From: Eledone cirrhosa
Taxonomy: Eukaryota
Direction of reading: 5' to 3'
DNA: 64,000 nucleotides
Assembly: GCA_964016885.1 (NCBI GenBank)
Contig: OZ024742.1
Location: forward strand, 36,332,001 to 36,396,000
Positions 894 through 61,135 of the stretch are shown here, one piece after another (position 1 is the first letter of the stretch; each line of letters begins with the position of its first letter). Position numbers and translations under genes: made by a program. The notes below the pieces were generated by a model. That model worked only from the letters and a program-made list of their open reading frames with translations. It made no database searches and had not been told where the DNA came from.

Positions 894-1057
894 GATTAAT
901 ATTAAGAAAAATTAATAATACGAAGAGTTAAAATTTGAGACTTGAAAATTCAAGTATAAAATTCATTGTGGGATTTCATAGCAGTTTTCATCTAGGTAGC
1001 AACAACAGGTTGACTGCTGTGTCCCTTTCTGGTAGTGAATGAGAAGTTATTTGGGGT

Positions 1058-1687
1058 GTGGGTTATTTTATAAAGGTCAGATTTAGCAATAGCCAGCTGG
1101 TGGTCAGTGAGGGGGTGGAAGCAATATACAAAAACCTCCCCATCCTACTTAAAGATGTAAAAATGAAGTCTATTCTTGAAACACACAAGATCCTTAAAAG
1201 TAAAAGACAACCCAAATCACTTAAACGCATTCTCACTGGACCAAATATACCCAAACCAATCCTCAACCCTACAGTTACCAAATGTGGTAGAACAAACTGT
1301 GGAACGTGCCTCTACCTCACTGAAGGACAAACATTTACATTCAAAGATGGCCAAACATTTACAGTAAAAAACAATTTCACCTGCAACTCGGAGAACTTGA
1401 TTTACGCAATAACTTGCGGTGGGTGCAAACACAACTACATAGGACAGACGGGCACCTCATTACGCAAAAGAATGACCATCCACCGCCAACAAATCCGGGA
1501 CGCTAACACAAGAAAAATCCCCTTGAGCAGCCATATTGCGAACTGCGCAGGAATGACACTACCCAACTTTAAAATCTTCCCCTTCTACAAGTGCTCAGAT
1601 TCGTTCACACAACAACAAAGAATAAACAAAGAAAATCTATTCCTTAACAAATTTAAACCAAAACTAAACGGGTTATCACCCCAATAG
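1058..1687 (+). pseudogene. Penelope-like GIY-YIG endonuclease, C-terminal fragment
   Basis: CGRTNCGTC linker, NLIYAITCGGCKHNYIGQTG (GIY-YIG), RKRMTIHRQQI, ENLFLNKFKPKLN. The first ~24 codons derive from the inverted pLTR and no RT is present. Confidence 0.88.
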
Positions 1688-5150: not shown

Positions 5151-8100
5151 TAGCAACTAACAGTGCTGCGATCGAATGTGGCTTTTTAGCCCAGCCAATG
5201 ATCTAAAATGTCTTGCACAGAGTCGGCAACCAAAACATTCACTGGGAATAGTCGGCTGTGGTTGGAGTTCGTGTACTTTTGCATGTCGCTTGAGCCCTCC
5301 TGCTGATTTACATTCTCTACCACATGTTTGGCAAGCATGATGAGTAGCATCTCCAACAGCAGCCTGGTAGTCAACCACTGGTCTTACTTTATGACTGCGA
5401 AGATGACTTTCGAGTCCAGCTTTGCTTAGGCAGAGTCTCGCACAGACGCTGCATGTCAGAACCATAGGAGGACCCTCGCCGCCTGGAAGTGCAACAGCAA
5501 TGCCCTTCCTCACGTCCCGCTTTACTTTCTCGTGTGCGATTCGAGATGCCTCAAAGGCAACTTTTCCCTCATATACAGTCTTTCTCCATTTATTACGATT
5601 AGCAGCAATATTTTCCCATGTATCAGCAGAGATGTTAGCGTCTTTCAGAGAGGCTTTCAAGGAATCCTTATACCTCTTTTTTGGTTTATGTGACGGTCGT
5701 TTTCCTTTAACCAACTCTCCATAGAAGAGTTGTTTTGGTATTCTAGAATCCTTCATCCTGGCAAGGTGACCACTCAAACGGAGTCGTTGCTTAAGCACAA
5801 GAGCTTCTATACTGTCACACATAGAGCTTTCCAAAATCTCGACATCACTGATGTGGTACCTCCAGTGAACGCCATGGATCCGTCTGAGACACATCTGATG
5901 GAAACGCTCCAATTGCTTAAGGTGGCGTCGATATGTGACCCAGGTCTCGCAGGCATAAAGAAGACAAGACAGTACACATGCCCTGTACACCTTTACCTTT
6001 GTCCTCCTGCATATGTCTCGCCGACCCCAGAGTCGCCTTTCTAGCTTTCCGAAAGCATCATTTGTTTTCCTAATCCTAAGTGAGATTTCACTGTCAAGGT
6101 TGCCGTATCGATTGACAGTGCTTGCCAGGTAGACAAACTGATCAACCACTCCAAGTCGTTTGCCATACACATAGATGTTTGGTTCAGTGTACTGCTTACC
6201 AGGGGCAGGTTGGTACATGACGACGGTTTTCTTGAGACTGACAGTCAGACCTAGGGCAGTGCAAGCGTCACAAAATGCATTCAAAATGTGCTGCATATCA
6301 CTCTCTGTGTGCGCTACAAGATCGCAATCATCTGCATACAAGAGATCTCTTATGGTTGATGTAAATACCTTTGTCTTCGCAGCAAAGCGCCTGATGTTAA
6401 ATATGCTGCCTGAGGTTCGATATCGGATATAAACACCATGCTCTCAATTCCTGAATGCAATACAGAAAACCATTGCAAAGTATATGGCAAACAGGGTCGG
6501 TGCTGGAATATCCCCCTGTTTCACTCCATTTTTTACTGAGATAGGCTCCGACATGTTACCTCCGACATTAACCCAAGCCTTCATGTCGTCATGGAAAGAC
6601 CTAACTAAAGCAAGGAACTTATCAGGGCAACCAAGTTTCTGGAGAACCTTCCATAATGCATCTCTGTTGACAGTATCGAAAGCCTTTGTCAGATCGACAA
6701 AAACCTGATACAGATCCAAGCCCTGTTCAATGCACTTCTCCTGGATCTGTCTAGCTGAGAAGATCATATCAGTAGTGCCGCGTCCAGCACGAAAACCAGA
6801 TTGACTTTCAGGAAGGACACAATCTGCAATGTGTGTCAGCAGACGGTCCAGAAGCACCCTACATAAAACTTTCCCTACGACAGAAAGCAATGATATACCT
6901 CTGTAGTTCCCACAATCATTCCTGTTACCCATTCCCTTGTACAAGACCACCATTACTGCATCTCTCCAGTCCTCAGGCACGGATTCATTAGCCCATATCC
7001 TTCCAAACAGAGAGTGAAGATGTTGCAGGAGTCTCTCACCACCATATTGTAGGAGCTCAGCATGTATGCCATCCATACCTGGAGATCTTCCACTGTTCAG
7101 CTTCGAAATAGCCACTGCAGCCTCCACAAGCGTCGGAGGTTCTGCGAGAGCTACTTTCACAGGACTTTCCGGAATGAGATTGAGGAAATCTTCACTGACG
7201 ACAGACGGCTGATTCGAAAGATCATCAAAGTGCTCTCGCCACCTTCGTAGAATTCCTTGTGAGTCACGAAGAAGTTCCTTGCCATCCTTGCTGCGAATCG
7301 GTGTCACCAGAGAAGAAGACGGTCCATAAACCTCACGCAAGAGACTGTACAACAGCTTTGTGTTATTGCAATCAGACGCAGTTTGTATCTCACCAGCCTT
7401 CTCACTCCACCACTGATCCTTCATCTGAGAAAGACTCCGCCTAACACGTGACTTTACATCCCTGAGTTCCTCATGCAACGTATTCCTCTCCTGTGGTTTT
7501 GCCGTCAAGTAGCGTGACAGAACACGCCTCTTATCAGCCAACAAGTCTTCTATATGTACATCATTCTCATTAAACCAGTCCTGATGTTTTCTCTGCACCA
7601 ATCCCAGAACACGTCTGCCTACATCATAAACCGACTTTTTAAGGGTCGGCCAATCCTCACCAAGATCTGCAGCCTGCATCTCTTCTTCCAATGTCCTCTT
7701 CACATTTTTATCCTTAAGACGAGCAGCATTCAATCTTTTGGGCAGGGTAACACCAGGAGCCCGGATTTTACGTTTGGTGATTAGATTCACTTTTGCGCGT
7801 ACCAGGCGGTGGTCCGTCCAGCACTCAGCTCCACGAAGAACACGAACACACTGCACATCCTGTCTGTCACGCATCCTGACTAGGACGTAGTCCAAAAGAT
7901 GCCATTCCTTAGATGCAGGATGCATCCATGTGGTCTTGAATTTGTTCTTTTGTTGGAACATGGTGTTGGTAACACACAGATCCAGCTCCTCACACATCTG
8001 CAGCAAGAGCATACCATTGCTGTTACACTTTCCCACCCAATGCCTTCCGATTACATTCCATGTGTTAAAATCCCTACCCACTCTAGCATTAAAGTCACCA

Positions 8101-9080
8101 AGCACGATGACTTTGTCTGCCTGAGGGATATTTCTTAGAACACCTTTCAAGGCATGGTAAAAGGACAGTTTTTCTTCGTCGACAGAATTCATAGTTGGAG
8201 CATACACACTCACCAGGGTAGCATATCTTCCCTTGTCCAGCGGAACTCTCATGGACATAAGACGCTCACTAATCCCTACTGGGAATTCTTCTAATTTATT
8301 CACCAGTACAGTCTTAACAGCAAATCCTACCCCAGCCTCTCTTCTGGTTCCTTCATCTCTTCCTTTCCAGAAGAATGTATATTCTCCACAAAATTCCGTA
8401 AGATGACCATCTCCAGCTAACCTCGTCTCAGACAAAGCCACGATGTCAAGATCGTAACGTCGAAGCTCCTTTGCAACAAGAGCGGTCCTTCAGGACGCTC
8501 CAAAGAATCCCTGTCAAGCAGCGTCCGTACGTTCCAGCAGCCAAGACTAAATGCCCTGTTTGGCTCTATTACAATGGCACGATGACGGGCGGGCCCAGGT
8601 TGTGATAACTTGGGGCCCCTGCCTTTATTGCCAATGATCTCTTTTGTTCCAGAACCCAAATTGGCAATTATCTCGTTTGCATTGTTCTGGAACATCATTG
8701 AATTGGGAAAAAAAAAAAAAAAAAAAAAAAAAAGTAATAATAATAGTAATAATAATAATAATAATAATAATAGTACACTATTAATAATTATTAATGCACT
8801 CGTGCAATGCCTGTGCGTGACGAATATTTTTAAAGTGAGGAAAGACTGTGCACTGAGCCAATCCCACTCTCTGAGCGACAGTAGCTATAACCCGAAAAGA
8901 AGAAAAGATCAACAACATCGGTAACTACTGAGCCGCAGGTTTTATATCGGAGTTAACCCAGTTTCCTGAGATGCCTTCTCCTAGAAGAATACCCTGACAA
9001 GGGCTAGGGGTCCTTCACTCCCAGTGGTTTAACTGCGCGATCGGGCATCCAGCCCGATTATTTCTATGTCCCCGCGCAAA
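4690..9080 (-). mobile_element. RTE-clade LINE, near full length
   Basis: APE+RT ORF. 5' UTR (~8790-9080) is homologous to 43690-43880 and 53955-54122. 3' terminus ...ggccatactcgataacgagggggcagccatc runs into (TA)n. Confidence 0.9.
5157..8698 (-). pseudogene. RTE ORF: AP endonuclease, reverse transcriptase, three C2H2 zinc fingers
   Basis: WNVRTL, ALSETR, GDFNARVG, LDYVL, TDH (APE); NYRGISLL, FVDLTKAFD, GVKQG, YADD (RT). One frameshift near 8490 and one in-frame TGA at 6444-6446. Confidence 0.92.
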
Positions 9081-18253: not shown

Positions 18254-20830
18254 CTAGCGGAGCTACCCGGCTTCGCTCAGTGTTAAAAAGCTTATTTAGA
18301 AAAGAATAATATTAACATTTTAATCGTTATTTAAAAACTTCTGTAATTTAGTTTCTATTTTTTAGATTTTAACATTTATCTTTAAATGACTGAATGACTG
18401 ACGAATTTAAAGAAAATTCGTTATAAGAACATTTAATTTGTTTTACTGAAGTGCTTTTGGATACACAATGTTTTTTGTTTTTCCTTCTGGTGCGTACACG
18501 AATAAATCAGAAGGTTTACCGACGCGTGACCAAGCCACATACATCTGTCCATGTGAGAAGCATGGATTTTCTAAATTTAGTCCACACACTTGTAGCGATT
18601 GTCCTTGTGCTTTGTTGATAGTCATTGCAAAGGCGAGTCGCACGGGAAACTGCAAACGTTTGAAATCGAATGGCGTATCTGTTGGAATGATTGGGATGCG
18701 TGGCAAGAGTACATCTTCTCCTTTAAATTTTCCATTTAAAATTGTAGCCTCGATGATATTGTTCATCGTCTTTTTCACTGAAAGTCTGGTACCGTTGCAA
18801 AGTTGTGGTGGATTGATGTTTCGGAGAAGGATGATAGGCACGCCAATTTTCAATGTTAAAATGTGCGGTGGCATGCCTGGCAAATCAAGTGAATTCAAGA
18901 ATTCAATTGGATAATTGATAATTTTACAGTATCGATGGACTTATACGTTGTCGCTTCGCCTGGTATTTCGTTTTGAATGCTGAAATTAATGGCATTGACA
19001 TCGGTGTTTTTGGCTGCTAATATAGCACGTACACTGAGCCACTGATGATTTTTGTAATGCTGCGCAATATTTGGGAACACTTTGTGAATCAGTTCGTCTC
19101 TGGTTGCCGTGATTCTACAGAAGTTTGTTGGCAATGTGATACATTTTGTGAAATCATCGATTACCATTTTCCCATTCCCAATATCCAGCAATTGTTTTGT
19201 GAAACGTTCAGCGGATGCGTCATTTTGTAGTTGTACACGCATATTGTTTTTTAAAGTTAATTTCTGTGCGTGTCGCCATAAAACTGATGATTTGAGACAT
19301 GCATTAAGCTCATCAGCGGGTGTTGATCGCGGTATAACTGGTAGAGTTTGTCGAAAATCACCAGACAATAAAATGAGTGTGCCACCGAAGAGCTGTTCAT
19401 TTCCTTTCAAATCTTTTAGCGTATTATTAAGCGCTTCCAATGATTTTTTGTGCGCCATAGTACATTCGTCCCATATAATGATTTTACATGATTGGAGTAC
19501 TTTACCTATACCAGAATTTTTGGTAATATTGCATGTTGATGTCTCAGCGATTTGCATATTCAATGGCAATTTCAGGGCTGAATGTGCTGTTCGGCCACCA
19601 TCTAAAAGAGTTGCCGCAATTCCAGATGATGCGATTGCCAGTGCAATATTATTTTCTGATCGTATAGTTGCCAAAATAAGTGAAATGAGAAAAGTTTTGC
19701 CTGTACCACCGGGCGCATCTATAAAATACAATCCGCCGCTTTGACTTATAATTGCCTGCATAATTTGGTCATATACTATGCGTTGTTCTGGTAACAATTT
19801 GGGAAGATTCGTTTGAACAAATGTACCCAATTCGGCGACATCAAAGTTTGTTTCTCGTTGCAAATCACGATCGAAAATGTCGTTTACAGATCGATTCGGC
19901 GCAGGCATTCCCAATTGTACCAATGTTTTGTTAGCGATTGCTAAATATATGACCTCAATGGAAACCAATGCTTCATTATACACATTTTGTGTGAATTGAA
20001 TATTCATATTTTGATTTGTTGCACGCAAACGATGTAGGATGTCTTCACTCATGTAGTCTTTATATTTTTCCCAAAGATCTTTTGGATTTGATGGGAAGCA
20101 CGTTGTCAATATTATTGAGAATAATGTGCGTATTTGCTTTGGTTGAGCAGTATTCGATGCATCAGCGAGTGAAGTGTCCCAATGTCCATCATTTTCAAGA
20201 AGATTTAATTCTTGGCAAGCTTCACGATAAGTGGCACATACTTGACCGTTTACTGTTCTCAATTCTTGGAATGATGTCGGTCCACGTATGTGTCCAGGTC
20301 AGGAAAATAAGGACAGACGAAATGAAGATATCAAATTACAGCACTTAGTTAAGGGCTAGCTGAAAAAGAATTCCCTGTAATGGGAGTGGAAGGGAAGTAA
20401 TGTGAAACAGACACTATACTAATTCTATTGAAATTATATTAAATTAAAGAGAGAATTTACTAATTCTATTGAAATTATATTAAATTAAAGAGAGAATACT
20501 AATTCTATTGAAATTATCTTTAATTAAAAAAATTTCACACTCGCTCTTTCACTTACTCTTTGTCTATACGTTGATTTCTCTTTCTCCGTTTATAGCACTC
20601 TCTCTTTGTCTATACGTTGCACTTTCACTCTCTCTTTGTCTATACGTTGATTTCTCTTTCTCCGTTTATAACTTTAGAGACAGTCTAATATAGGGAGTGG
20701 TTCAAAGCAGCCAGACTACTCGCTCTTTCACTCTCTGTTTGAATATACGTTGATTTCTCTTTCTCCGTTTATATCTTTGGACAAACAAACAAACATACAT
20801 TCATTTTTATATATATGTAAATATATATAT
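18254..20830 (-). mobile_element. Helitron, internally deleted (helicase retained, Rep lost)
   Basis: 3' end gcgaagccgggtagctccg-CTAG|T at 18254-18257. 5'-type end ...tatatataaaaatgaatgtatgtttgttt near 20790-20830. PIF1-like ORF. Confidence 0.85.
18443..20262 (-). pseudogene. Helitron PIF1-family helicase (frameshifted near 18900)
   Basis: [61 protein letters not shown]. Confidence 0.93.
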
Positions 20831-25107: not shown

Positions 25108-26462
25108 TTCGTTTTCATTCAATTGAACTTTTATTGCCACATTGCCGGCCTTTTTTTCGCAACTTGCGAAAATAGAAAATATTCCTTTTAAAATTATCGA
25201 AAAGTTAGTAGTATTTCAAAAAACCTTTTGCTACACTCGACAACAACAACGACAGCAGCAGCAGCGACAACATTGTTTAACCACTGACCAAAACAGGGAA
25301 TAGTGAGTGGCAGCTTCATAGCCTTACCGACGCAAACCACCACACATCGGAAATATCAAAACGATTCATTCGTGTCGATAATTTAGAGCAACTCTTTTTT
25401 ATTCACTTGAATATTCCATTTCCGTTGCCAACTTTTTCGCAACTTACAGAAGAAAAAAGAAAAAAGTGTATTTTTCCAAGGTGGCGTTGCGTTCCTTCCC
25501 AGTTTTGTAACGGACACATTTTTTGAATTGCGTGTGTGTTCCATGACTGATCAAGAGAGAAGAGACTAAACTTTTTTTTGTGAACATAACTGCCCCGCAT
25601 GGGGATATACATGCCTTACCTTTTTCTAAGGGATTTTTAGCCACTGGCTACCTTTGTTGATATCCAACGCGGATATATTTAAAAAAAAAAAAACATTTTT
25701 TTCTTCCTTTTTTTTTTACCTTATTTGATTTGGCTGGTTCGTTGAGGCAACGTGAGGGGACAGACGTTGAAGGAAAATTTTTTTTTAAAGATATATATCT
25801 GTATTTTATGTATTTTGCATATTTCCTTATGTTTTGAATGTCTGTTTCTTTTTGCCCTTTAACTTTTTCTCAGTATTGGCTGTTCTCTTTTTACTGTTCA
25901 AGGGTACATTAATTGCTCTTTAGATATATAGGTATACATATGTGGATGTACATTTTTAACTTAATTGTTTAAGCGTCAGTCATACAAAAGTGAGTTACAA
26001 ACGAAACGAAATTTAATTTCGTTTCGTTATTTGTTTTTATCGTCTCCGCTGAACCGGTACGTACTCACGCTCTATGCAAATTAGTCTGCCCACTACTAAT
26101 TTTCATAGAAAAAGCATATAACGATATGTGCTTTTACGATTCTCTAGAAAGGCCGGAGGATAGGTAAATATTGCTGATGAGATGTAACAACATCGAAACT
26201 AGTCCAATATTCCTGTCTGGCTTTCTGGAGAATAGAGGAAAGGTGTTTCCTCGAAAACCAGTATGACTCTAAAAACCGGTTTGTCTGTGTGTTTACATAC
26301 AGAATAGCTGAACACTCACAGTAAAGTGTCCAGTGAAAAACTCGGTACATCTACATATGTACACGTGTGTGTATTCATATGCATACTAGTATTTCAGTAT
26401 ACATATGTGGATGTACATTTTTAACTTAATTATATATATTTGTTTTAATTTTAAAAGTTGAC

Positions 26463-27231
26463 ATGAATGTACCACATTTGCCCGCCTTTACTGGAAAACC
26501 TAAGATGTGGTTTGCCCAGTTACAGGCGTATTTTACGGTCTGTAAGACCGAATCTGACCAGCGCCTCGCTGTACTGATTAGCGGCCTTCCCCCTAATCTA
26601 GCAGATTCGGTCCAAGACCTAATTACAGACCCCCTCTCTGACTTGACGTATGAGTTTTTGAAGGGCGAGATTTTGAGGAGGAATTGTAAGTCGGTAGAGA
26701 GTCGTTTTCAGTCACTGATCGAGGACGAACGATTAGGTGACAGGACCCCTACCGCTTTTCTCCGGCATTTGCGGGATTTGAGCGATTCCCAAGATCAGGA
26801 TAGCCCTTTCCTGAAGCAATTGTTCTTCTCTCGCCTACCTCAAGAGGTACAGGCGATCCTAGCCCATATGCTAGAGGTGAATACCTTGGATCACATTGCT
26901 GTCTCTGCTGATAAAATTGTAGAGGTGACGAAGAGAGACACTTCGAAGCCAAAGTACGTTGCTTCCTCTTCTCTTCCTCAATCACGCTCATCAGCGTCTG
27001 ATGACAAATTAATCACCACTATGGAAGCCATGACTCGTCAAATGGCGGAGTTGTGCACGGAATTCAGGTCCTTTGGACGGCAGAGGAGCCGCTCACGACG
27101 TTATTCAACTTCTCGCCACCAGGAACACACCAGGAACACCGTATTGTTATTACCATGAAAGATATGGTAAAAAAGCCGCCCATTGTAGGCCTCCTTGTGC
27201 TTACGAGGGAAAAGACGACCAGAGTCACTAA
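26463..27231 (+). CDS. gag: Gag (disrupted; CHCC finger out of frame)
   Basis: [58 protein letters not shown] lies in another frame from 27145. Confidence 0.82.
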
Positions 27232-30200
27232 CGGCGGATAGTGCGCTCTGCGAAACAACATCTAACCGCCACTTTTTCATTGAGGACCTGCTGTCAGGTA
27301 GAGCTTTTCTGGTTGACACAGGTGCAGCTTGTTCCGTATGGCCTGTGTGTTGTATGAAGGAGACTCCCCCTGAGACGCCTATTGAGTTGCAGGCAGTAAA
27401 TTGTTCGCCGATTCGAACTTTCGGACAAATCTCGTTACCTTTGCAGTTTCGTAATCTGCGGCGCGAGTTTAAATGGATATTTACTGTCGCTGCCTTGCCG
27501 TATCCGATTCTAGGCGCGGATTTTCTCCACCATTTTTCATTGACGGTGGACCTTCGTGGTAAACGCCTAATTGATCGCATCACGGGATTAACTGTTGTTG
27601 GCAAGGCAGCAGGAGTTCCAACGGTTAGCCCGACATTTTTTCTTGCTAACACCGGTGATCCTTTCCATGCGTTGTTGAACTCGTTCCCGCAACTGACTCG
27701 GGGAAATTTTCGATTTGATGAACCTACTCATACCACGGAGCACTTCATATCTACAACTGGTGCTCCCGTTTTCTCTCGTCCTCGTCGCTTGCCTCCGGAC
27801 AAACTCAAAGCAGCACGATCAGTATTTGATCATATGCTGCAAATTGAGATTATTCATCCGTCCACGAGCCCGTGGGCGTCCCCATTGCACATGGTACCGA
27901 AAGCGAATGGCGATTGGAGACCTACTGGAGATTATCGACGCCTGAATTCGATAACGGTGCCGGACCGTTATCCTATCCCTCATCTGCAAGACTTTGCGTC
28001 TTCGTTGCAGGGATGCAAGATATTCTCCAAACTGGATTTAATTCGTGCGTACCATCAAATTCCTGTCCATAAAAATGACATTCCAAAAACGGCTATAGTT
28101 ACGCCATTTGGGTCTTTCGAGTTTTTGACTATGCCGTTCGGATTAAGGAATGCCGCTAGTACTTTTCAGCGGTTTATGGATGAGGTTACTCGCGGCCTCG
28201 ATTTCGTCTATACCTATATTGACGACCTGCTCATTGCTAGTTCTTCTCCTGGGCAGCATACGCACCATTTGAATCTTCTTTTCCGCCGATTGAAGGCGTA
28301 TAACGTGCAGCTTAATGTACCCAAATGTGTTTTTGGCGCTGAGTCACTGACTTTCTTGGGTCACGTCATCGATGCTGACGGAATTCGACCCCGGCCTGAG
28401 CGAGTTAAGGTCATAGAGGATTTGCCTCCACCGACCTCACTACGTCAGTTACGCCAGTTCTTAGGTCTGGTTAACTTTTATAGGCGTTTCGTGCCAAATT
28501 GTGCAAAATTGCTTTTCTCCCTGACAGAAATTTTGAAAAATTGTCGGTGGAAGAACAAAGATATTTCTTTGACAGACACTCAACTTGCTGATTTTCAGCA
28601 CGCCAAAACTGTTTTGGCTAATGCTTCGTTCCTGACTCACCCGGTACCCGGTGCAAAGCTAACGCTTTGTGTTGATGCATCGGATATCGCTGTGGGCGCA
28701 GTACTACAGCAAAACATCAATGGTTACCAGCAACCGCTGGAGTTTTTTTCCAAAAAGCTAAATCCTGCTGAGACGCGCTACAGCACCTTTGGAAGAGAGC
28801 TTTTAGCCATCTATTTGGCCGTGAAACATTTTTCACATGTGCTAGAGGGTAGACAATTTACTATCCTCACTGACCATAAACCATTGACTTTTGCTTTGAG
28901 AGCGAAGGCTGATAAATACTCGCCCAGAGAGACGAGACACCTTGATTTCATCTCGCAATATACGAGTGATATCCAGCACATTCCGGGTTCACTAAATACA
29001 GCGGCCGATGCTTTGTCCCGCTTACCCGTGACAGCGATCTCGTCATCCTCTGACATAGATCTGACTCGTTTGGCTGCGGATCAGCCTTCCCTTGAGTCAT
29101 TGGATGTCACATCGCCCGAGTTTGCGAATTGCGAGATGAAATACTTGCCTCTGTCGACTGCAGTTGGCCAAATTCTCTGCGACGTCTCTTTGGACGTGCC
29201 CAGGCCCTTCGTTCCAGAGAATCATCGTCGGACCGTGTTTCTGGGATTACATTGTATCTCGCATCCAGGATGTTCTGCCACAGCAAAGCTCATATCAGCT
29301 AGATTTTTCTGGCCAAATATGAGGCGTGAAATTGCTGCTTGGTGCCGTTCCTGCGTCGCTTGCCAGAGATCAAAGGTCCATCGACACGTCAAGGCTCCCC
29401 TGGGTACCTTTGCTAACCCAGATGCGCGTTTTTCACATATTCATATTGACATAGTGGGACCTTGGCCTGTCAGCGATGGTTTTTCTTATCTACTTACCGT
29501 CATTGACCGTTTTTCGAGATGGCCTGAGGCCATCTCCTTGAAAAACATCACCGCGGAGACAACAGCACGTGCTCTTGTGTCTGGATGGATCTCTCGTTAT
29601 GGAGTTCCATCCACAATAACTACCGATCGTGGACGACAGTTCGAGTCGAGCCTTTTCCTCGAGCTGTCAAAATTAATTGGTGCTAAACGCATTAGAACTA
29701 CGGCATACCATCCCGCTTCGAATGGTATGGTGGAGCGTTTTCACCGCCAACTGAAGACCTCCTTAATGGCCTCAATGGACTCGGCGCATTGGAGCGAGTA
29801 CCTCCCTATTGTGCTACTAGGGATTCGGTCAACGGTGAAGGTCGACTTTGGATTTTCACCGGCCGAAGTACTGTACGGTGCCCCTCTGACGTTGCCCGGG
29901 CAAATGCTTGCCCCTGTCGATCTTGATGCCCAAGATCACGCTTCCTACGTGTCCCGTTTGCGCTCCTATTTCCAGGATTTGTCGCCAATGGACACTAGGA
30001 AACAAACTGTCAAGACTGCTGTCCCGAGGGATATTGCCTCGTGGACGCATGTCTTTGTAAGGAATGATACGGTGAAGCCCCCGCTCACACAGCCTTACAC
30101 TGGACCTTACCGTGTCTTAGCGCGCTCGGCTAAGCATTTCACGTTAGATATTAAGGGGTCCAGGGAGACAGTTACATTAGACAGGCTTAAGCAGGCGCAC

Positions 30201-30389
30201 CTTGACACGGACGCTGTGGTTCCTGATCCACGAACCCCTTCGTATTTGCCTGTTGAGCGAACGACTGTTCCTGAACCACCATCATCGCCTGTCCCTACAC
30301 CACCACCATCGCCACGTTACAAGACCACGACCCGTTCAGGTCGTAGGGTCCACTGGCCCAACAAATTTTGCAGCACCGTCTATATTTAG
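27195..30389 (+). CDS. pol: Pol polyprotein (protease, RT, RNase H, integrase), uninterrupted
   Basis: LVDTGA; YIDD; VDASD...ELLAI; H-H-C-C zinc finger and D,D,E core (HIDIV, TTDRG, MVERF). Slippery G GGA AAA at 27207-27213. Confidence 0.96.
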
Positions 30390-35504: not shown

Positions 35505-38500
35505 AGTTGCATTTATCTTGCTTTATGTTCATACGAGTTATCACCAAGTCACAACCAGTGACCTCAAGAGACAACAAGGTCCGCCATGTTCAAGAAAGAA
35601 CATACATATTCACACATGCATCTTTAGTGTTTAGACTTGTGATGTACTTATATTGACAGAATCTTCCTTAGTATATGGGCAGTTCCCATTAATACTATCT
35701 TTTGTATTTCTCCTATACGCGGGTTTCCTGGGATTTGCGATATGTAATCATTAGACCCCTTAGGTATCATTCACAGAGCGCCTACAACCACTGGTATTGT
35801 TTTAGTTCTCAATTTCCACATTTTTCCAATTTCTATCTCCAGGTCCTTATACTTGCTCAATTTTTCAAATGTTTTTATAGATACATTCTTGTCTATTGGA
35901 ACAGACATATCAATTAGCAGGCATACCCTCTTTTTAAAGTCCTTCAATATTATATCAGGTCTATTTGCATCTATTTTTCGGTCTGTTTGGATGCTAAAGT
36001 TCCACAAGATTGAGATGTGATCTTTTTCAAGTATGGGAGGTGGTTGATGCTCCCACCAATTCTTTTGATGGGGCAGGTCAAAATGCTTACACATTATCCA
36101 ATGTATGTATTGTGCAGCTCTGTCATGCCTGTTTAGGTATTCGGTTGGAGCTATAGGACTGCACATTGAAATTATATGGTCAATGGTCTCTGGTTGTTTT
36201 TTGCATACACGGCATAATGGGCTGCATCCAATTTTTATTATGTTGGCTTGGTAATTTTTTGTTGGCAGACACTGATCTTGTGCTGATATAATCAGTCCTT
36301 CAGTCTCCGATTTCAGTCCAGAGGATGCCAACCACTGATGGGTTAAAGTTTTGTCAACATCAGGATTGTTAGCTCGCTCTGGGTATTTTCCATACAGAGG
36401 CTTTTCTTGCCATTTCTTAGCCAGTTTCTGTAGCAGTTCTTTCTTTACAGTTACTTTTACCTGCTTTGCTTTTTCTGTGTTTTCCATTTCAGCAGTAAAT
36501 GGGACTTCTGAAATTTGTAGTCCATTACTGTATCTTTGTGCATCTTTTGTAATGGAATATGATCTTTTGATGCTTTCGTGTTTCAAAACGAGTTTGATCA
36601 TCCAATCATGTGATTCCCTTAGATATGTAGATAATCCAATCGTTGCAGTTTTCAACGCAATGTCTAACTGGATTAACCCACGTCCTCCTTCTTTCCTGGG
36701 GAGATATATTCTATCTATATCTGCCTTAGGGTGATGCATTCTGTGCATGGTTAAGAATTTTCGAATTTTTGTATCGAGCCTACGGATCTCTGTGCTTGAC
36801 CAGTTGATGACATTGTAACTGTAGGTTACTACTGGTATGGCAAGCGTGTTTATGGCATCGATCCTATTCCTTGCATTCAATTCCGTTCTTAAGATTGCTC
36901 TTACTCTGCGGTAACATTCCTTCCTTATCCTTTCCCTCATTGTCGAGTGCTTGATTCCGTCTCCTTCACAAACACCTAGATATTTGTAAGTTTTTTCTTG
37001 ATCAAGTTCTCTTATCACGTTCCCCCGATCAAGATTAATGTCTGAACTCTTCAGCGGCTTTCCTCTGGTGAACGTTGCTTTGGCGCATTTATCTAGTCCA
37101 AACTCCATTTTAATGTCATCACTGAACTGCTTCACAGTGGATAATAGCCCTTGCAATTGTTCATCATTTTTTGCAAATAGTTTCAGGTCATCCATGTAGA
37201 ACAGGTGATTAATAGTTTTGTCATAGACTTTATATCCATGTTTTGTTTCATTGAGCATTTTACTTAATGGTATAAGTGCGATGCAGAATAAAAGCGGTGA
37301 TAAAGAGTCACCCTGAAAAATTCCACAATTAATATTAACTTCTCCAGCTTCCAGTGATTTTGTTTCACTATTCAAAAGGAGTGTCGTTTTCCATGTCTTC
37401 ATACTGAATGACAAAAACCTCCTGACAACGGGGGATATTTTGAAAATCTCTAAACATTTTTCAATCCAACTGTGTGGCAAACTATCGAATGCTTTTTTAT
37501 AATCTATCCAAGCAATCGATAGATTTTTGTGTCTATGATGACAATCTTCCAGTATCATTTTGTTAACCAGAAGCTGATCCTTACAGCCATATGAGCCTCG
37601 TTTACACCCTTTCTGCTCAATGGAAAATAGGTCATTTGTTATCAGGTGGTCATATGTGTATTCAGTTAGGACTGATGTTAAAATTTTATACATTGTGGTC
37701 AAGCAAGTTATCGGTCTGTAATTTTTGGGATTGTTTGTCTCATCATTCTTCGGAAGCAGGAATGTAATGCCGTTAACTAGCCATGATGGTATCTTTTCTG
37801 GCTCCTTAACTATTTCATTGTAAAGTTGGGCTAACAGCTCATGAGACTCTGTGAAGGCATTTATCCAAAAGTTTTGTATTTTGTCTTTTCCTGGGGATTT
37901 CCATTTGCTGGTTTTTCTTAGAGCCAAGCGCAACTGTTCAACTGTTATATTTTCCCATATTTGTTCCTCAAGGTGAGCTGTATCTTTCATTTGTCTGTCT
38001 ATCCATGGGGCATGTATGTTATGAACTTTTTCTTCGGCCCAGATCTTTTCCCAGAATTCTTGCACTTCCTCCTTGGGTGGTATTGATTTAGCAGTTATTG
38101 TTGACTTACCAATTTTTCTGTAGAAGTTTCTTTGGTTGTTTTTGAACATATTATTGTCCTTATAGAATCTAGATCGTTTTTCAAAGCGCCTTATACGAGC
38201 AGCTTTGGCCGACACTTTTTGCTTGATTGTTTCTATCAGCATATCTATGTCACATGTTGATCTTATACTGTACTTTTTTTTCAATTTTCTAAGTTTAGTT
38301 TGTTTAACATGTTCACCTACTTTATAGTTTGTTAAAATTTCTATGTCAGATCGGAGAAGGTTTATTTGGCGATTGATGTTCTCTTGCCAAGTAGATTTCT
38401 TGTGGGAATTCCTTTGTTTTTTGATCTTCACTCCACATAAGTGAGTGGTGACTTTAGCCGATGCATAATAGAGATGATTTAAATCAGTAATGTTTAGGTT

Positions 38501-39470
38501 GTTTGTGATGATAATGTTTTTGAGAATTATGTTAGTCTTGTGTATTATCTTTTGGTTCTGTTTGGAGTTCTGGATCTTAGGGAGGGTGTCTCGTTGCCCC
38601 ATGTCAGATTCTTTTATTTTCATCCATTCGATCATAATTTCATCCTTCAAGTTGGCAAGTTCATTCTCATTCATTTCTTTATCATTTACGATCTCATTAT
38701 TTTCATTTGGAGTTTCATCCTGAGCATGCACTCCCTCCACTTTTTCGATCCTTTCTTTAATTTGTTCTGTTGCCAGTGATTCCGCCCCAACCCTGGGATT
38801 CGAAGTGTTACAGTTTACCTCGTTTTCACTGACACATGTTTCATTTTCCCTTCGCTGACTTTGTGCTAATAGCTTGATCTGATCAATTTCTATATCAGTT
38901 AGTAACTTTTTTCTTACAATATTTCTTCGTATATTGGCTAGTTTGTTACTGTCAATATAGCCTCTGTTTTCGGGATGTTTCTTTTTCCAGTTGATATATG
39001 TCTGTTCTGTATTCGATGTATTTGATGGGTAGTACATGGCAGTGTAGAAAGCCTCAAGGACTTCTTTATTATCTTCCCTTGACCATTTTTCTCTCTTTTT
39101 CTTTGGATTTCTTGGTGGTGAGCATGGAGGGCCAACAGTAGGAGTATTCCGGTTATGGGAGGTCTCCAGCTCCGAAGTGATGGGAAGGTTTGAACCATTA
39201 GCTGATTTTTCGACCCCAATCTGGTTCCTCTCTGAGGGACGCGGCCCTTTTTTACCCGGGTGACGGCCGATCCGGTATGAGATTTTATCATTAGACATTT
39301 ACTTTATTTTGTCGCGTGTTATCCTTATCCGCCAAGGGGTAATCATTTCGTGTTACCACTTCTAGAACGAGTGTCAACCAAGACTAGAGGGGTCGTTCTC
39401 CCCTAGAGACACGGCTATTCCCCGCCGGCCGCCATCCCGGTATTTCTTGGTCACGGGGTTTTCTTTTTGT
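35505..39470 (-). mobile_element. Dong/R4-clade non-LTR retrotransposon, full length
   Basis: Single RT plus restriction-like endonuclease ORF, GC-rich 5' UTR, 3' end joined to (TAA)n. Confidence 0.9.
35648..39298 (-). pseudogene. R4/Dong ORF (RT, CCHC, RLE) with a single late nonsense codon
   Basis: NYRPITCL, IDYKKAFD, GIFQGDSLSP, FYMDD, CRVC..H...C, NRPDI..D..K. TGA at 35771-35773, then in-frame MIPKG...LMGTAHILRKILSI* to 35648. Confidence 0.9.
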
Positions 39471-57020: not shown

Positions 57021-57688
57021 GTCCGATACGATAGAAGTCTCTCTATATATATATATACATATAAGTTTAAAAGATATACGGAAAAAATGAAACAAAATTT
57101 CATTTCCCACTCTTAGCACGGCCGTTACTTAAATATAAGTATGTACACGTACATACATATATGTATACCGACGCACAGTAGTATGTATATATATATACAT
57201 ACATGCACACACATATATATGTACGTATGGATTCACCGAACATTTATTATAATGCCCGGTGTGTTTGTAAACAAACATCCCGTATTAAGCCGTAGTGTCC
57301 AGCATACATACTACTGTGTGTCTGTATACATATATGTATGTACGTGTACATACTTATATTTAAAAGATATATTAAAGGATATACATCAATTGAGAAACTA
57401 TTGTATTTCGTACATATATACTGAACAATTAATATGTAAGTAAATATACTTACTTCAAGAAGGAAGCATGGACTAAAGTGACTTAGACACATATGTTTCT
57501 GAAAACCGAAGAGAAGACGCTAACCATTGATCTTGGTGTTTAGTATCAATCACCAATTATTGATTTTAGTAATAAGTATATATAGCTGTTACCGATTTTG
57601 TTGAGCAGTTATTGGACTTTCGATGTTTTCCTTCTTCCTTTTCGTATCTATGGATATTGCTACATATATACACACACAACACACACAC

Positions 57689-57752
<64 letters not shown>

Positions 57753-57756
<4 letters not shown>

Positions 57757-57846
57757 TAACAGATTAAAGTTTAAGCAAAGAATCGCTGCTTTCCCCGTTA
57801 AGGGTGAAAGCAGCGATTCTTTGCTTAAACTTTAATCTGTTATTTT
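57753..57846. repeat. ~41-bp-arm hairpin
   Basis: aaaataacagattaaagtttaagcaaagaatcgctgctttc and its reverse complement around a 12-nt centre. Part of the arm recurs at 62685-62705. Confidence 0.9.
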
Positions 57847-57941
57847 CTCTACGGTTTGCTCTACGGTTTTTATATATTTGATATATATTTATCTTTATCG
57901 AGCCCTCTTTGGATTTTAGTCTTCAAATTTATTATTATTAC

Positions 57942-57979
<38 letters not shown>

Positions 57980-58242
57980 ATAAACGAAAAAAATGAAACG
58001 AAATTTCATTTCCCACTCTACGGCTGTTACTTAAATATAAGTATGTACACGTACATACATATATGTATACAGACATACAGTAGTATGTATATATATATAC
58101 ATACATGCACACATATATATATGTACGTATGGATTCACCGAACATTTATTATAATGCTCGGTGTGTTTGTAAAGAAACATCCCGTATTAAGCCGTAGTGT
58201 CCAGCAGCCATCGTTGCTCGTTTGTTCAACACTGACAAAGGA

Positions 58243-58285
58243 ACGCTGTACTAGTTTCAAGCTTATTAGCTATCGTCAGCAACGT
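58243..58285 (-). ncRNA. Hammerhead ribozyme, family H
   Basis: Reverse complement of 58977-59019. Confidence 0.78.
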
Positions 58286-58662
58286 ATAACTTCCTGCCAG
58301 ATTGTTGAACGTATATACTTACCTTATGCATATTAACGGCTGAGTAGCCCAATTTGCATATCGAGTGGGTTAATCGGCCGGGTGCACCGAAAACGATAAA
58401 CGAAAAAAATGAAACGAAATTTCATTTCCCACTCTTAGTACGGCTGTTACTTAAATATAAGTATGTACACGTACATACATATATGTATACAGACATACAG
58501 TAGTATGTATATATATATACATACATGCACACATATATATATGTACGTATGGATTCACCGAACATTTATTATAATGGTCGGTGTGTTTGTAAACAAACAT
58601 CCTGTATTAAGCCGTAGTGTCCAGCAACCATCGTTGCTCGTTTGTTCAACACTGACAAAAGA

Positions 58663-58705
58663 ACGCTGTACTAGTTTCAAGCTTATTAGCTATCGTCAGC
58701 AACGT
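58663..58705 (-). ncRNA. Hammerhead ribozyme, family H
   Basis: Exactly 420 nt from the previous copy. Confidence 0.78.
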
Positions 58706-58976
58706 ATACCTTCCTGCCAGATTGTTGAACGTATATACTTACCTTATGTATATTAACGGCTGAGTAGCCCAATTTGCATATATGTATGTACGTGTACATA
58801 CTTATATTTAAGTAACAGCCGTACTAAGAGTGGGAAATGAAATTTCGTTTCATTTTTTTCGTTTATCGTTTTCGGTGCACCCGGCCGATTAACCCACTCG
58901 ATATGCAAATTGGGCTACTCAGCCGTTAATATGAATAAGGTAAGTATATACGTTCAACAATCTGGCAGGAAGGTAT

Positions 58977-59019
58977 ACGTTGCTGACGATAGCTAATAAG
59001 CTTGAAACTAGTACAGCGT
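58977..59019 (+). ncRNA. Hammerhead ribozyme, family H
   Basis: acgttg-CTGACGA-tagc taataa gctt-GAAA-ctag-TA-cagcgt. Palindromic stem III ACTAGT. Confidence 0.78.
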
Positions 59020-59224
59020 TCCTTTGTCAGTGTTGAACAAACGAGCAACGATGGTTGCTGGACACTACGGCTTAATACGGGATGTTTCTTTACAAACACA
59101 CCGAGCATTATAATAAATGTTCGGTGAATCCATACGTACATATAAATATGTGTGCATGTATGTATATATATATACATACTACTGTATGTCTGTATACATA
59201 TATGTATGTACGTGTACATACTTA

Positions 59225-59277
<53 letters not shown>

Positions 59278-59294
59278 ATATATATGTATGTGTG

Positions 59295-59380
<86 letters not shown>

Positions 59381-59386
<6 letters not shown>

Positions 59387-59673
59387 GAGTCAGGACCCCG
59401 ACGGCTGAGCTCAGCCGTCGGAGTCCTGAATCTTTTAATATCACCCACTCTACTAACCCAAGTATCGAGTACTCTGGTGGGTTATGGTCAAGCTGATATA
59501 TATATATATATATAAAACGAAGGAAGTGTGGTAAGGAACCAGGTGGACCATAACGTACCAGAGTACTCAATACTTAGGGTAGTAGAGTGGGTAATAGGAA
59601 AATGCTTAACCCCGACGGCAGAATTCAAGCCGTTTGGACGGCTAGAGCTCTGCCGTCGGGGTTAAACATTTTC
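59381..59673. mobile_element. Small non-coding element with a hairpin at each end and internal inverted repeats
   Basis: Hairpins at 59381-59438 and 59598-59673 share ccccgacggc/gccgtcgg. IR 59443-59478 vs 59558-59592. Inside (TA)n. Confidence 0.65.
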
Positions 59674-59703
59674 ATATATATATATATATATATATCCCGA
59701 GTA

Positions 59704-59762
<59 letters not shown>

Positions 59763-59881
59763 GAGTAAGATATATATATATATATCTGGACTAGCAACCT
59801 GACAGATACCTCAGGCACTGATGATGATTATCGCTAAATACTGATGTTGGTTAGATTATCAATATTAGTATTATTGGGGCA

Positions 59882-60008
59882 CCCACTGATGAATTATAGG
59901 AGCCCACTTGAATATATATCTATTGATGGTATACAAGCTCCTACATAAATTGGTATAAATTCACCCAAATTGTAGGAATCCTATAATGAAACGAGATGTC
60001 CGTCTGGG
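59882..60008 (+). ncRNA. Type I hammerhead ribozyme with 95-nt stem II domain (family I)
   Basis: ccca-CTGATGA-attatagga...tcctataat-GAAA-cg agatgtc cg-TC-tggg. GUC cleavage site after 60004. Confidence 0.85.
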
Positions 60009-60583
60009 AAGAGATATATTCGATATGTCTCATATGAAATAATACAGCCAATTTTCCACGCAATACTTTTAGTTAGCACCCCGAACACATAATTGGGAAT
60101 ATAATCACTTATTTCCTAATGTTTGTTGAGTGAGTTGGAATTTGGCCGGAGTATCGCTAAAAAGCTTTCTCCGATATTGTATTTATTTATTTACTCTTGG
60201 TGCAGCAGATTTGAAATTCCCGGTATACGGTTAGGCTTTCTTTGTTTATTTTTTTATATATGAATATTGATTGTTCCTTATATCTCATTCTGTTATTTTG
60301 CCCGAGAAAATATCTGTGTGTGTCATCAAATGTTGTACACACATAGATATTTTTTCAATTTCCAATTGAGTTCTAGCACGTGGCCTGAATTCCTTTTAGA
60401 GTTCATTGTCATGCGCATGTATTGTTTTTTTTTGGCGGTACTTTACTTCCTCATTTTTGAATCAGTTTGAGCATTTCTTTAGAACTGCTGGACTAGCAAC
60501 CTGACAGATACCTCAGGCACTGATGATGATTATCGCTAAATACTGATGTTGGTTAAATGATCAATATTAGTATTATTGGGGCA

Positions 60584-60710
60584 CCCACTGATGAATTATA
60601 GGAGCCCACTTGAATATATATCTATTGATGGTATACAAGCTCCTACATAAATTGGTATAAATTCACCCAAATTGTAGGAATCCTATAATGAAACGAGACG
60701 TCCGTCTGGG
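60584..60710 (+). ncRNA. Type I hammerhead ribozyme, family I second copy
   Basis: Same motif, with palindromic GACGTC in loop III. Cleavage after 60706. Confidence 0.85.
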
Positions 60711-60881
60711 AAGAGATATATTCGATATGTCTCATATGAAATAATACAGCCAATTTTCCACGCAAAATTTTTAGTTAGCACCCCGAACGCATAATTAGGA
60801 ATATAATCACTTATTTCTTAATGTTTGTTGAGTGAGTTGGAATTTGGCCGGAGTATCGCTAAAAAGCTTTCTCCGATATCG

Positions 60882-60938
<57 letters not shown>

Positions 60939-60960
60939 TTTATTAAGGCTAAATAGTGAG

Positions 60961-60999
60961 TCTTGTTACTCTGGAGTTTCACAAGGTCATCAGACAAGA
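60961..60999 (-). ncRNA. Hammerhead motif with collapsed stem II (family J)
   Basis: Minus strand tcttgt-CTGATGA-ccttgt-GAAA-ctc ca gag-TA-acaaga. Confidence 0.62.
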
Positions 61000-61135
61000 A
61001 TATATATAAAGATACATATAATTATATATCAAACTGACTATATATATATATATACGAATATATATAAATAGTTTTTATATATGAGTGGGCGTGGGCGTTT
61101 GTGTATACATATGTATGAAGATGGATACAGGGATA

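What the first reader, a model, noticed from the sequence alone, without database searches (positions are those of the whole stretch)
59786..60890. LTR-like retrozyme with a giant, potentially switchable stem II (702-nt monomer)
Seen: two ~400-bp direct repeats each hold a fully canonical HHR (CUGAUGA, GAAAC, GUC) whose stem II is closed by 9 bp and spans 95 nt. Inside it, tcctaca (59939-45) can pair with tgtagga (59971-77), leaving the core intact. Alternatively gctccta (59937-43) can pair with taggagc (59897-903), which breaks stem II. Cleavage sites are 702 nt apart. Inference: a non-coding replicon giving a 702-nt circle whose ribozyme toggles between active and inactive folds. Standard HHR models may miss it.
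Basis: partly seen in the sequence, partly recalled or inferred. Interest (0 to 1): 0.85.

Follow-up and report, generated by a model that had tools for sequence, protein, structure and literature searches.

The report
Penelope-type retrozyme with giant hammerhead loop
This is one copy of a non-coding jumping repeat with over 1,400 hammerhead-ribozyme motifs in this genome, each carrying an unusually large, conserved branched loop that standard RNA models miss; it likely cuts itself, would circularise, and is likely spread by Penelope-like retrotransposon enzymes, while the proposed on/off switch exists in only one of its subfamilies.

Summary
In detail: 1.57 copies of a 702-nt unit, each with a type I hammerhead whose 9-bp stem II spans 95 nt; Rfam misses it. 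The interpretation needs changing. It is not LTR-like: copies are partial tandems of up to 5 units, with a fixed 3' end at (TA)n and variable 5' ends, the Penelope-like (PLE) signature, so it is an animal non-LTR retrozyme. About nine subfamilies (units 680-1,000 nt, 1,473 exact motif hits) keep the branched loop with compensatory changes. The switch helix is near-isoenergetic in this subfamily but broken in 30 of 32 aligned sequences. Conserved instead: a GGGC/GCCC pairing (likely a pseudoknot; invariant, so not proven) and a self-complementary loop III (likely dimer cleavage). Coding Hydra-clade PLEs in this genome also carry ~101-nt stem II hammerheads. No coding master and no RNA evidence were found. 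Earlier scan notes report branched stem II hammerheads in phages, not on this DNA. New variant of a known kind.

The parts
59786..60487 (+). One full 702-nt tandem unit of the non-autonomous element (5'-truncated start, directly after (TA)n)
60488..60890 (+). Partial second unit ending at the family's fixed 3' end, followed by (TA)n
   Evidence: loose ends with (AT)n at 60190 in public contigs
59877..60008 (+). Type I hammerhead, copy 1: stem I 59882-85/60005-08, core 59886-92 and 59988-92, stem II 59893-901/59979-87, stem III 59991-93/60001-03, predicted cut 60004^60005; loop III carries a private C>T at 59997
60579..60710 (+). Type I hammerhead, copy 2 (same layout +702), predicted cut 60706^60707
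59907..59937 (+). Hairpin P2a inside stem II; 6 of 13 pairs change on both sides across subfamilies
59939..59977 (+). Hairpin P2b inside stem II (tcctaca/tgtagga; U-A to C-G change via U-G)
59877..59905 (+). GGGC (59877-80) and GCCC (59902-05): predicted stem I/stem II pseudoknot, invariant at subfamily level
   Evidence: no compensatory change found
59897..59943 (+).
60707..60890 (+). Conserved structured 3' domain between predicted cut and fixed 3' end (174-196 nt in sister subfamilies); inferred RT recognition/initiation region
60005..60706 (+). Predicted cut-to-cut monomer (702 nt), folds better than shuffles (z -6.1, 20 shuffles)
59763..59785 (.). (TA)n left flank (target microsatellite)
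60891..60931 (.). (TA)n right flank

Best explanation
This is a 5'-truncated, 1.57-unit insertion of a high-copy non-coding tandem element (an animal non-LTR retrozyme) whose type I hammerhead carries a conserved branched domain in stem II; it likely self-cleaves as a dimer, would be ligated into a 702-nt circle, and is likely copied into (TA)n by a Penelope-like reverse transcriptase/endonuclease supplied in trans. Shown: tandem anatomy, copy number, fixed 3' end about 185 nt past the cut, variable 5' ends, (TA)n flanks, no ORF, covarying stem II/P2a/P2b, self-complementary loop III in every subfamily, variants shared by neighbouring units. Inferred: (1) read-through transcription of tandems; (2) two neighbouring hammerheads swap their weak stem III to form a long duplex and cleave, as known for PLE hammerheads, which would leave a monomeric circle largely inactive; (3) GGGC pairs with GCCC as a pseudoknot that docks stem I against stem II, so the large loop is a four-way domain (stem II, pseudoknot strand, P2a, P2b) rather than a floppy insert; (4) the RT starts internally at the structured 3' domain, primed by nicked (TA)n, and runs more than once round the monomer; (5) the helper is most likely a Hydra-clade PLE, because that clade targets (TA)n and here carries similarly oversized stem II hammerheads.
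For: End pattern: 24 of 29 distinct top loci end at unit position 401-408 at TA repeats, 5' ends scattered and none at the cut, position 220; up to 5 units at ~707 spacing. 1,473 motif hits, control 0. Structure: 93.7% of cells paired, 11 pairs with two-sided change, covariation 0.182 against 0.117 shuffled and <=0.057 slid. Loop III duplex -9.6 to -14.7 kcal/mol against +0.4 to +3.2 for the monomer hairpin in 9 of 9 representatives; a ninth subfamily has ACAATTGT in place of ACGATCGT, still a palindrome. GGGC in 25 and GCCC in 23 of 26 loci of that subfamily, which was found without requiring these motifs. Locus-private variants shared by neighbouring units: 0.60 per within-locus pair against 0.027 per cross-locus pair; 13 of 27 multi-unit loci. 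Hydra-type coding family with 99-105 nt stem II and the same GATC loop III in 26 of 30 loci. Literature: PMC4209133, PMC7229834, PMC11167929, PMC8557442, 10.64898/2026.07.22.740005.
Against: No cleavage, transcript or circle is shown. No coding master with this ribozyme was found among the loci checked, and the Hydra family's long stem II is unbranched and not homologous. The full hammerhead fold is 4-8 kcal/mol above the unconstrained ensemble in nested-only folding. GGGC/GCCC shows no compensatory change and most aligned sequences were picked by a pattern that required it. Shuffle controls ignore relatedness: only about nine lineages are compared. Shared variants can also come from local duplication or gene conversion (L091 shares variants among subsets of units). 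In the one PLE studied in vitro, hammerhead cleavage was not needed for insertion (PMC11167929), and 8 of 9 Xenopus retrozyme dimers did not cleave (bioRxiv 2026).
Confidence: 0.75

Rival explanations
1. The ribozyme is a conformational switch through the first reader's helix (taggagc/gctccta), toggling cleavage on and off.
For: In this subfamily the alternative fold is within 0.2-1.1 kcal/mol (ensemble) of the stem II fold and reaches probability 0.72-0.75 in one sequence context; the subfamily is large (464 exact hits of its 29-mer).
Against: Central pair G-C in 2 of 32 sequences, mismatch in 30; no two-sided change; score no better than shuffles; probability <=0.017 in all 30 others. It arises from two separate compensatory changes that each preserve the active fold (stem II pair 41:124, P2b pair 82:119).
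Confidence: 0.08
2. The conserved off-state is GGGC/GCCC forming a nested hairpin round the catalytic CUGANGA, with the large loop delaying or gating stem II (kinetic or protein-triggered switch), rather than a stabilising pseudoknot.
For: In pseudoknot-free folding this helix has probability >0.5 in 22 of 32 sequences and displaces stem II; PMC7229834 notes that metazoan circle hammerheads must be blocked by some unknown means; a PLE hammerhead was protein-assisted (PMC11167929).
Against: The program cannot represent pseudoknots, so it must choose; the strands of stems I and II stay free in the hairpin loop; the topology (bases just 3' of stem II pairing with the stem I side) matches pseudoknots shown to activate hammerheads (PMC3088659).
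Confidence: 0.2
3. No circle is involved: uncut multimeric read-through RNA is the template and tandems are homogenised by DNA-level duplication or conversion; the ribozyme only trims transcripts.
For: Uncut RNA was the dominant substrate for the anole PLE in vitro (PMC11167929); no 5' end sits at the cut site; subset-shared variants in L091.
Against: Subfamily-diagnostic and locus-private changes appear in all units of two-unit insertions, which needs re-copying of one monomer or frequent conversion; the hammerhead is under structural constraint across subfamilies.
Confidence: 0.25
4. An LTR retrozyme like those of plants (two LTRs round a unique middle, Gypsy machinery).
For: Unit size of about 700 nt matches plant retrozymes; this locus alone looks like two repeats round a spacer.
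Against: Type I, not type III, hammerhead; up to 5 tandem units; variable 5' ends; 34% GC region; (TA)n targeting without a visible 4-bp TSD.
Confidence: 0.02

Closest known systems
Metazoan non-LTR retrozymes (Cervera and de la Pena 2020, PMC7229834; Li et al. bioRxiv 10.64898/2026.07.22.740005)
   Same: Non-coding tandem repeats, one type I hammerhead per unit, low GC, proposed PLE-dependent spread; family lengths of 51-972 bp reported, so 702 nt is in range.
   Different: Stem II holds a conserved 77-nt two-hairpin domain and a predicted pseudoknot instead of a short loop; transcription, cleavage and circles not shown here.
Hammerheads in PLE pseudo-LTRs (Cervera and de la Pena 2014, PMC4209133)
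   Same: Short helix I (4 bp), long helix II (9 bp; 7-8 reported), weak palindromic helix III suggesting dimer cleavage.
   Different: Loop II is a branched domain; no ORF between repeats.
Hydra-clade PLEs (Craig et al. 2021, PMC8557442)
   Same: (TA)n insertion; in this genome a coding family with CxCX5C, CxxC, CxH and DKT motifs has a 3' hammerhead with a ~101-nt stem II and GATC loop III.
   Different: The finding is non-coding and shows no sequence homology to that family; the paper describes Hydra hammerheads as canonical.
Pseudoknot-stabilised hammerheads (Perreault et al. 2011, PMC3088659)
   Same: Watson-Crick pairing between bases just 3' of stem II and the stem I side.
   Different: Here stem II is long and closed by two further hairpins; the pairing is invariant, so untested by covariation.
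Plant LTR retrozymes (PMC4918200, seen as search listing; features taken from PMC7229834 and the 2026 preprint)
   Same: About 700 nt between hammerheads; non-coding.
   Different: Type III ribozyme, true LTRs, PBS/PPT, 4-bp TSD, high GC; none fits.

Membership tests
Type I hammerhead ribozyme | Core CUGANGA, GAAA, A15.1-U16.1, NUH cleavage triplet | tested here: met
   core invariant in alignment A1
Type I hammerhead ribozyme | Three helices round the core, stem I open | tested here: met
   4, 9 and 3 bp; two-sided changes in stems I and II
Type I hammerhead ribozyme | Match to an Rfam hammerhead model | tested here: not met
   (explained by the 77-nt loop)
Type I hammerhead ribozyme | Self-cleavage at the predicted site | not testable with these tools
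   needs in vitro assay
Metazoan non-LTR retrozyme | Head-to-tail tandem units, one type I hammerhead each | tested here: met
Metazoan non-LTR retrozyme | Non-coding | tested here: met
   longest stop-free stretch 41-91 aa in upstream parts, 68 aa in the 1,000-nt unit; no PLE protein hit
Metazoan non-LTR retrozyme | Dispersed multi-copy family | tested here: met
   2,449 candidates; 1,473 exact motif hits
Metazoan non-LTR retrozyme | Expressed as linear and circular monomers | not testable with these tools
Penelope-like element derivative | Partial tandems, fixed 3' end downstream of the hammerhead, 5' truncation, (TA)n targets | tested here: met
   24 of 29 loci; cut-to-end 174-196 nt in 19 of 19 sequences used
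Penelope-like element derivative | Sequence homology to the pseudo-LTR of a coding PLE | tested here: inconclusive
   none found in the sampled PLE loci; only a small sample of tens of thousands of candidates was seen
Plant-type LTR retrozyme | Type III hammerhead in true LTRs with a unique middle | tested here: not met
   type I; multi-unit tandems
Plant-type LTR retrozyme | PBS and PPT | not tested
   not searched
Pseudoknot hammerhead | Watson-Crick stem I/stem II contact with covariation or rescue | tested here: inconclusive
   4-5 bp conserved; no compensatory change

The most novel reading that the evidence does not exclude
Hammerheads with 50-100 nt structured stem II domains are a hidden, abundant class in (TA)n-targeting Penelope-like elements and their retrozymes, missed by loop-capped searches; in this family the four-way domain is a gate (pseudoknot plus protein-binding hairpins) that keeps the circle uncut until the helper RT or a second hammerhead engages, which would answer how animal retrozyme circles escape their own ribozyme.
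Probability: 0.25. Interest if true: 0.8.

Novelty: new variant of a known kind. Interest (0 to 1): 0.52.

Why it matters
Retrozymes and PLE hammerheads are known, but this family shows a eukaryotic hammerhead with a large, covarying, branched stem II kept through about nine subfamilies and more than 1,400 copies, invisible to Rfam. Unrelated repeats in the same genome, including a coding Hydra-clade PLE, also have 50-105 nt stem II regions, so ribozyme censuses that cap loop II likely undercount, and PLEs said to lack hammerheads may deserve a re-search. The natural subfamily series gives ready-made variants to test three open points: dimer versus monomer cleavage, pseudoknot docking, and what blocks the ribozyme in animal RNA circles.

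Tried and rejected
LTR reading and conserved switch: rejected. Coding remnant in the middle: no ORF, no tblastn hit. Search for a coding master: 40 loci of diverged subfamilies, 20 more and the ninth-subfamily loci (hits not each inspected) showed nearby PLE ORFs that, where inspected (L137, L139, L148, L127, L208), were separate elements with their own 3' ends nested in the same (TA)n; nucleotide profiles over Neptune-like, GIY-YIG and Hydra-like loci hit only nested copies plus weak hits (E>=0.0008) that I did not inspect and take to be a common repeat included in the profile. Compensation in GGGC/GCCC: 47 genome hits with the third GCCC base changed are scattered over subfamilies; none of the 20 fetched had a matching change on the other strand; the other three positions were not searched. 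Shorter-loop relatives (40-70 nt): 8 hits, 1 control; three are deletions of this family. Public runs: no RNA holder listed; four contig sets of unknown kind cover the element and show (AT)n loose ends at the 3' end but cannot show RNA ends. A distal extension of stem I (TATTATT/AATAATA) was dropped because the 5' strand sits in a stronger upstream hairpin. First strict hammerhead scan had an indexing error and found nothing (corrected). Lunse et al. on dimeric PLE hammerheads could not be read; cited only through PMC6765202.

Full report
Observation. The region is a full 702-nt unit (59786-60487) followed by 403 nt of a second unit (60488-60890), 97.5-97.8% identical, between two (TA)n tracts. 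Each unit holds a type I hammerhead: stem I 4 bp, CTGATGA, stem II 9 bp spanning 95 nt, GAAAC, stem III 3 bp, GTC with predicted cuts after 60004 and 60706. Rfam finds nothing at gathering score in the window and no hammerhead at E<=10 in 59300-61000. The cut-to-cut monomer folds at z -6.1 against 20 shuffles.

It is a dispersed tandem family, not an LTR element. The unit has 2,449 candidates in the 3.0-Gb genome, 40 scored. In the 30 best loci (29 distinct; chosen for holding a full unit) 24 end at unit position 401-408 at TA repeats, five end elsewhere, and 5' ends are scattered over the unit, often at AT-rich tracts, none at the cut site, position 220. One locus has five hammerheads at 704-709 nt spacing. 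Partial tandems, 5' truncation and microsatellite targets are the PLE pattern (PMC8557442, passages and section 11 read). A fixed end about 185 nt downstream of the cut fits internal initiation of reverse transcription downstream of the hammerhead, shown for an anole PLE (PMC11167929, first two of four parts read). The cut-to-end distance is 174-196 nt in 19 of 19 sequences, and this 3' domain has a conserved long stem with several pair types (the end was sought from 165 nt on; four loci were left out and one added).

Subfamilies. A motif pattern gives 1,473 exact hits, 0 reversed; 464 hits match a 29-mer of the window's subfamily. 128 extracted hammerheads fall into 21 clusters at 90%, about eight real subfamilies; a ninth, missed by the pattern, came from a profile hit. 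Units are about 680-770 nt and 1,000 nt, colinear and free of long ORFs; 278 ORF stretches from PLE loci gave no tblastn hit on the units at E<=0.01. So the whole unit has evolved as non-coding sequence.

The giant loop is real structure. On 32 sequences that I chose to span eight subfamilies (69-100% pairwise, mean 82%), the fold stem I / stem II / P2a / P2b / stem III plus GGGC-GCCC has 93.7% paired cells, 11 pairs changed on both sides (3 in stem II, 6 in P2a, 1 in P2b, 1 in stem I), covariation 0.182 against 0.117 shuffled and at most 0.057 slid. These controls ignore relatedness, and stem I columns are imperfectly aligned. The first stem II pair is unpaired in 15 of 32 in that alignment (U.U or a shifted bulge).

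The proposed switch. In the window's subfamily the alternative helix is competitive: ensembles forced to contain it lie 0.2-1.1 kcal/mol above those with stem II in four windows, and its probability is 0.72-0.75 in another context. But its central pair is G-C in 2 of 32 sequences and mismatched in 30, it has no two-sided change, does no better than shuffles, and has probability <=0.017 in all 30 others. It is the by-product of two changes that each keep the active fold (A-U to G-C in stem II; U-A to C-G via U-G in P2b). A lineage-specific toggle cannot be excluded, a family-wide one can.

What is conserved instead. First, loop III is self-complementary everywhere: the element duplexes at -9.6 to -14.7 kcal/mol while the monomer hairpin costs +0.4 to +3.2 (9 of 9), and the ninth subfamily changes GATC to AATT. 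This matches PLE and amphibian hammerheads that cleave as dimers (PMC4209133, first two of four parts read; PMC6765202, passages). Second, GGGC just 5' of stem I can pair with GCCC just 3' of stem II, the topology of activating pseudoknots (PMC3088659, passages). It is invariant at subfamily level; most sequences were picked by a pattern requiring it, but the ninth subfamily was not and keeps GGGC in 25 and GCCC in 23 of 26 loci.

Circle or not. Over 375 nt, units in one locus differ by 2.5%, units of different loci by 4.0%; variants private to a locus are shared by its units in 13 of 27 multi-unit loci, 0.60 per pair against 0.027 for cross-locus pairs. The window's own two units share such a base at 59959/60661. 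This fits repeated copying of one monomer, as on a circle (model in PMC7229834, passages and discussion read), but local duplication or conversion can also do it. Junction reads would not decide, since ligation restores the tandem sequence.

Helper. No coding master was found (see Tried and rejected). The genome has active-looking Neptune-like PLEs with ordinary 13-20 nt stem II regions and Hydra-type PLEs (CxCX5C, CxxC, CxH, DKT motifs as in PMC8557442). One coding Hydra-type family has a hammerhead with a 99-105 nt stem II and the same GATC loop III in 26 of 30 loci, and another an 88-nt one; neither is homologous to this family. I therefore infer a Hydra-clade helper, with Neptune-like enzymes as the alternative. 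The repeat landscape looks like that of a cephalopod (recalled impression, untested).

Known versus new. Animal retrozymes as non-autonomous PLE derivatives, with family lengths of 51-972 bp, are described (bioRxiv 10.64898/2026.07.22.740005, first three of five parts read). Eight literature searches turned up no report of a branched ~95-nt stem II in animal retrozymes or PLEs; the nearest are the 'half core' cases with 35-50 nt spacing in PMC8557442 and a mouse hammerhead with a very large loop mentioned in PMC3088659. Supplements (descriptors, alignments) of these papers, Repbase/Dfam and subscription journals were not seen and may hold such cases. Earlier scan notes list branched or inserted stem II hammerheads in phages (unchecked) and nothing on this DNA.

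Verdict. New structural variant of a known kind of element; observation confirmed, LTR and conserved-switch readings rejected, cleavage and circularisation untested. Interest 0.52.

Noticed in passing
L220-L248 (3' UTR, about 650-830 nt after the ORF): Coding Hydra-type PLE family (CxCX5C, YRDD, CxxC, CxH) with a hammerhead whose stem II region is 99-105 nt, a long unbranched hairpin, in 26 of 30 loci.
   Followed up: partly
L213 (and L065), minus strand: Unrelated hammerhead with an 88-nt stem II region about 45 nt before (TA)n, downstream of a Hydra-like ORF end.
   Followed up: partly
L139, L079, L037, L194, L147, L170: Further hammerhead-like motifs with 37-58 nt stem II regions and palindromic loop III in other repeat families.
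   Followed up: no
window 59382-59441 and 59599-59677: Hairpins formed by inverted 3'-end fragments resembling the end of the Hydra-like element in L139 (GACGGCT...AGCCGTC with a GAGCTC centre).
   Followed up: partly
window 1043-1687 (+): C-terminal GIY-YIG part of a very young Neptune-like PLE: over 140 of 150 scored genome matches 100% identical at protein level; full copies have a 777-aa RT-EN frame and an upstream 350-430 aa frame.
   Followed up: partly
window 499, 11701, 12015, 15301, 15616: Hammerheads with the U3-A8 core variant and ACCGGT stem III at 3' ends of another Neptune-like family.
   Followed up: partly
window 57117-59230: A ~420-450 nt repeat in direct and inverted copies (98-99% identical), PLE-like inverted arrangement.
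   Followed up: no
window 5157-8489, 18443-20298, 26430-30389, 35771-39298: Other mobile-element ORFs: RTE-like LINE, Helitron-like helicase, Gypsy-like gag-pol, and a 1,175-aa RT element (labels from recall of motifs).
   Followed up: no
L282/L268: Ninth subfamily has a 1,000-nt unit through an internal ~250-nt duplication.
   Followed up: yes
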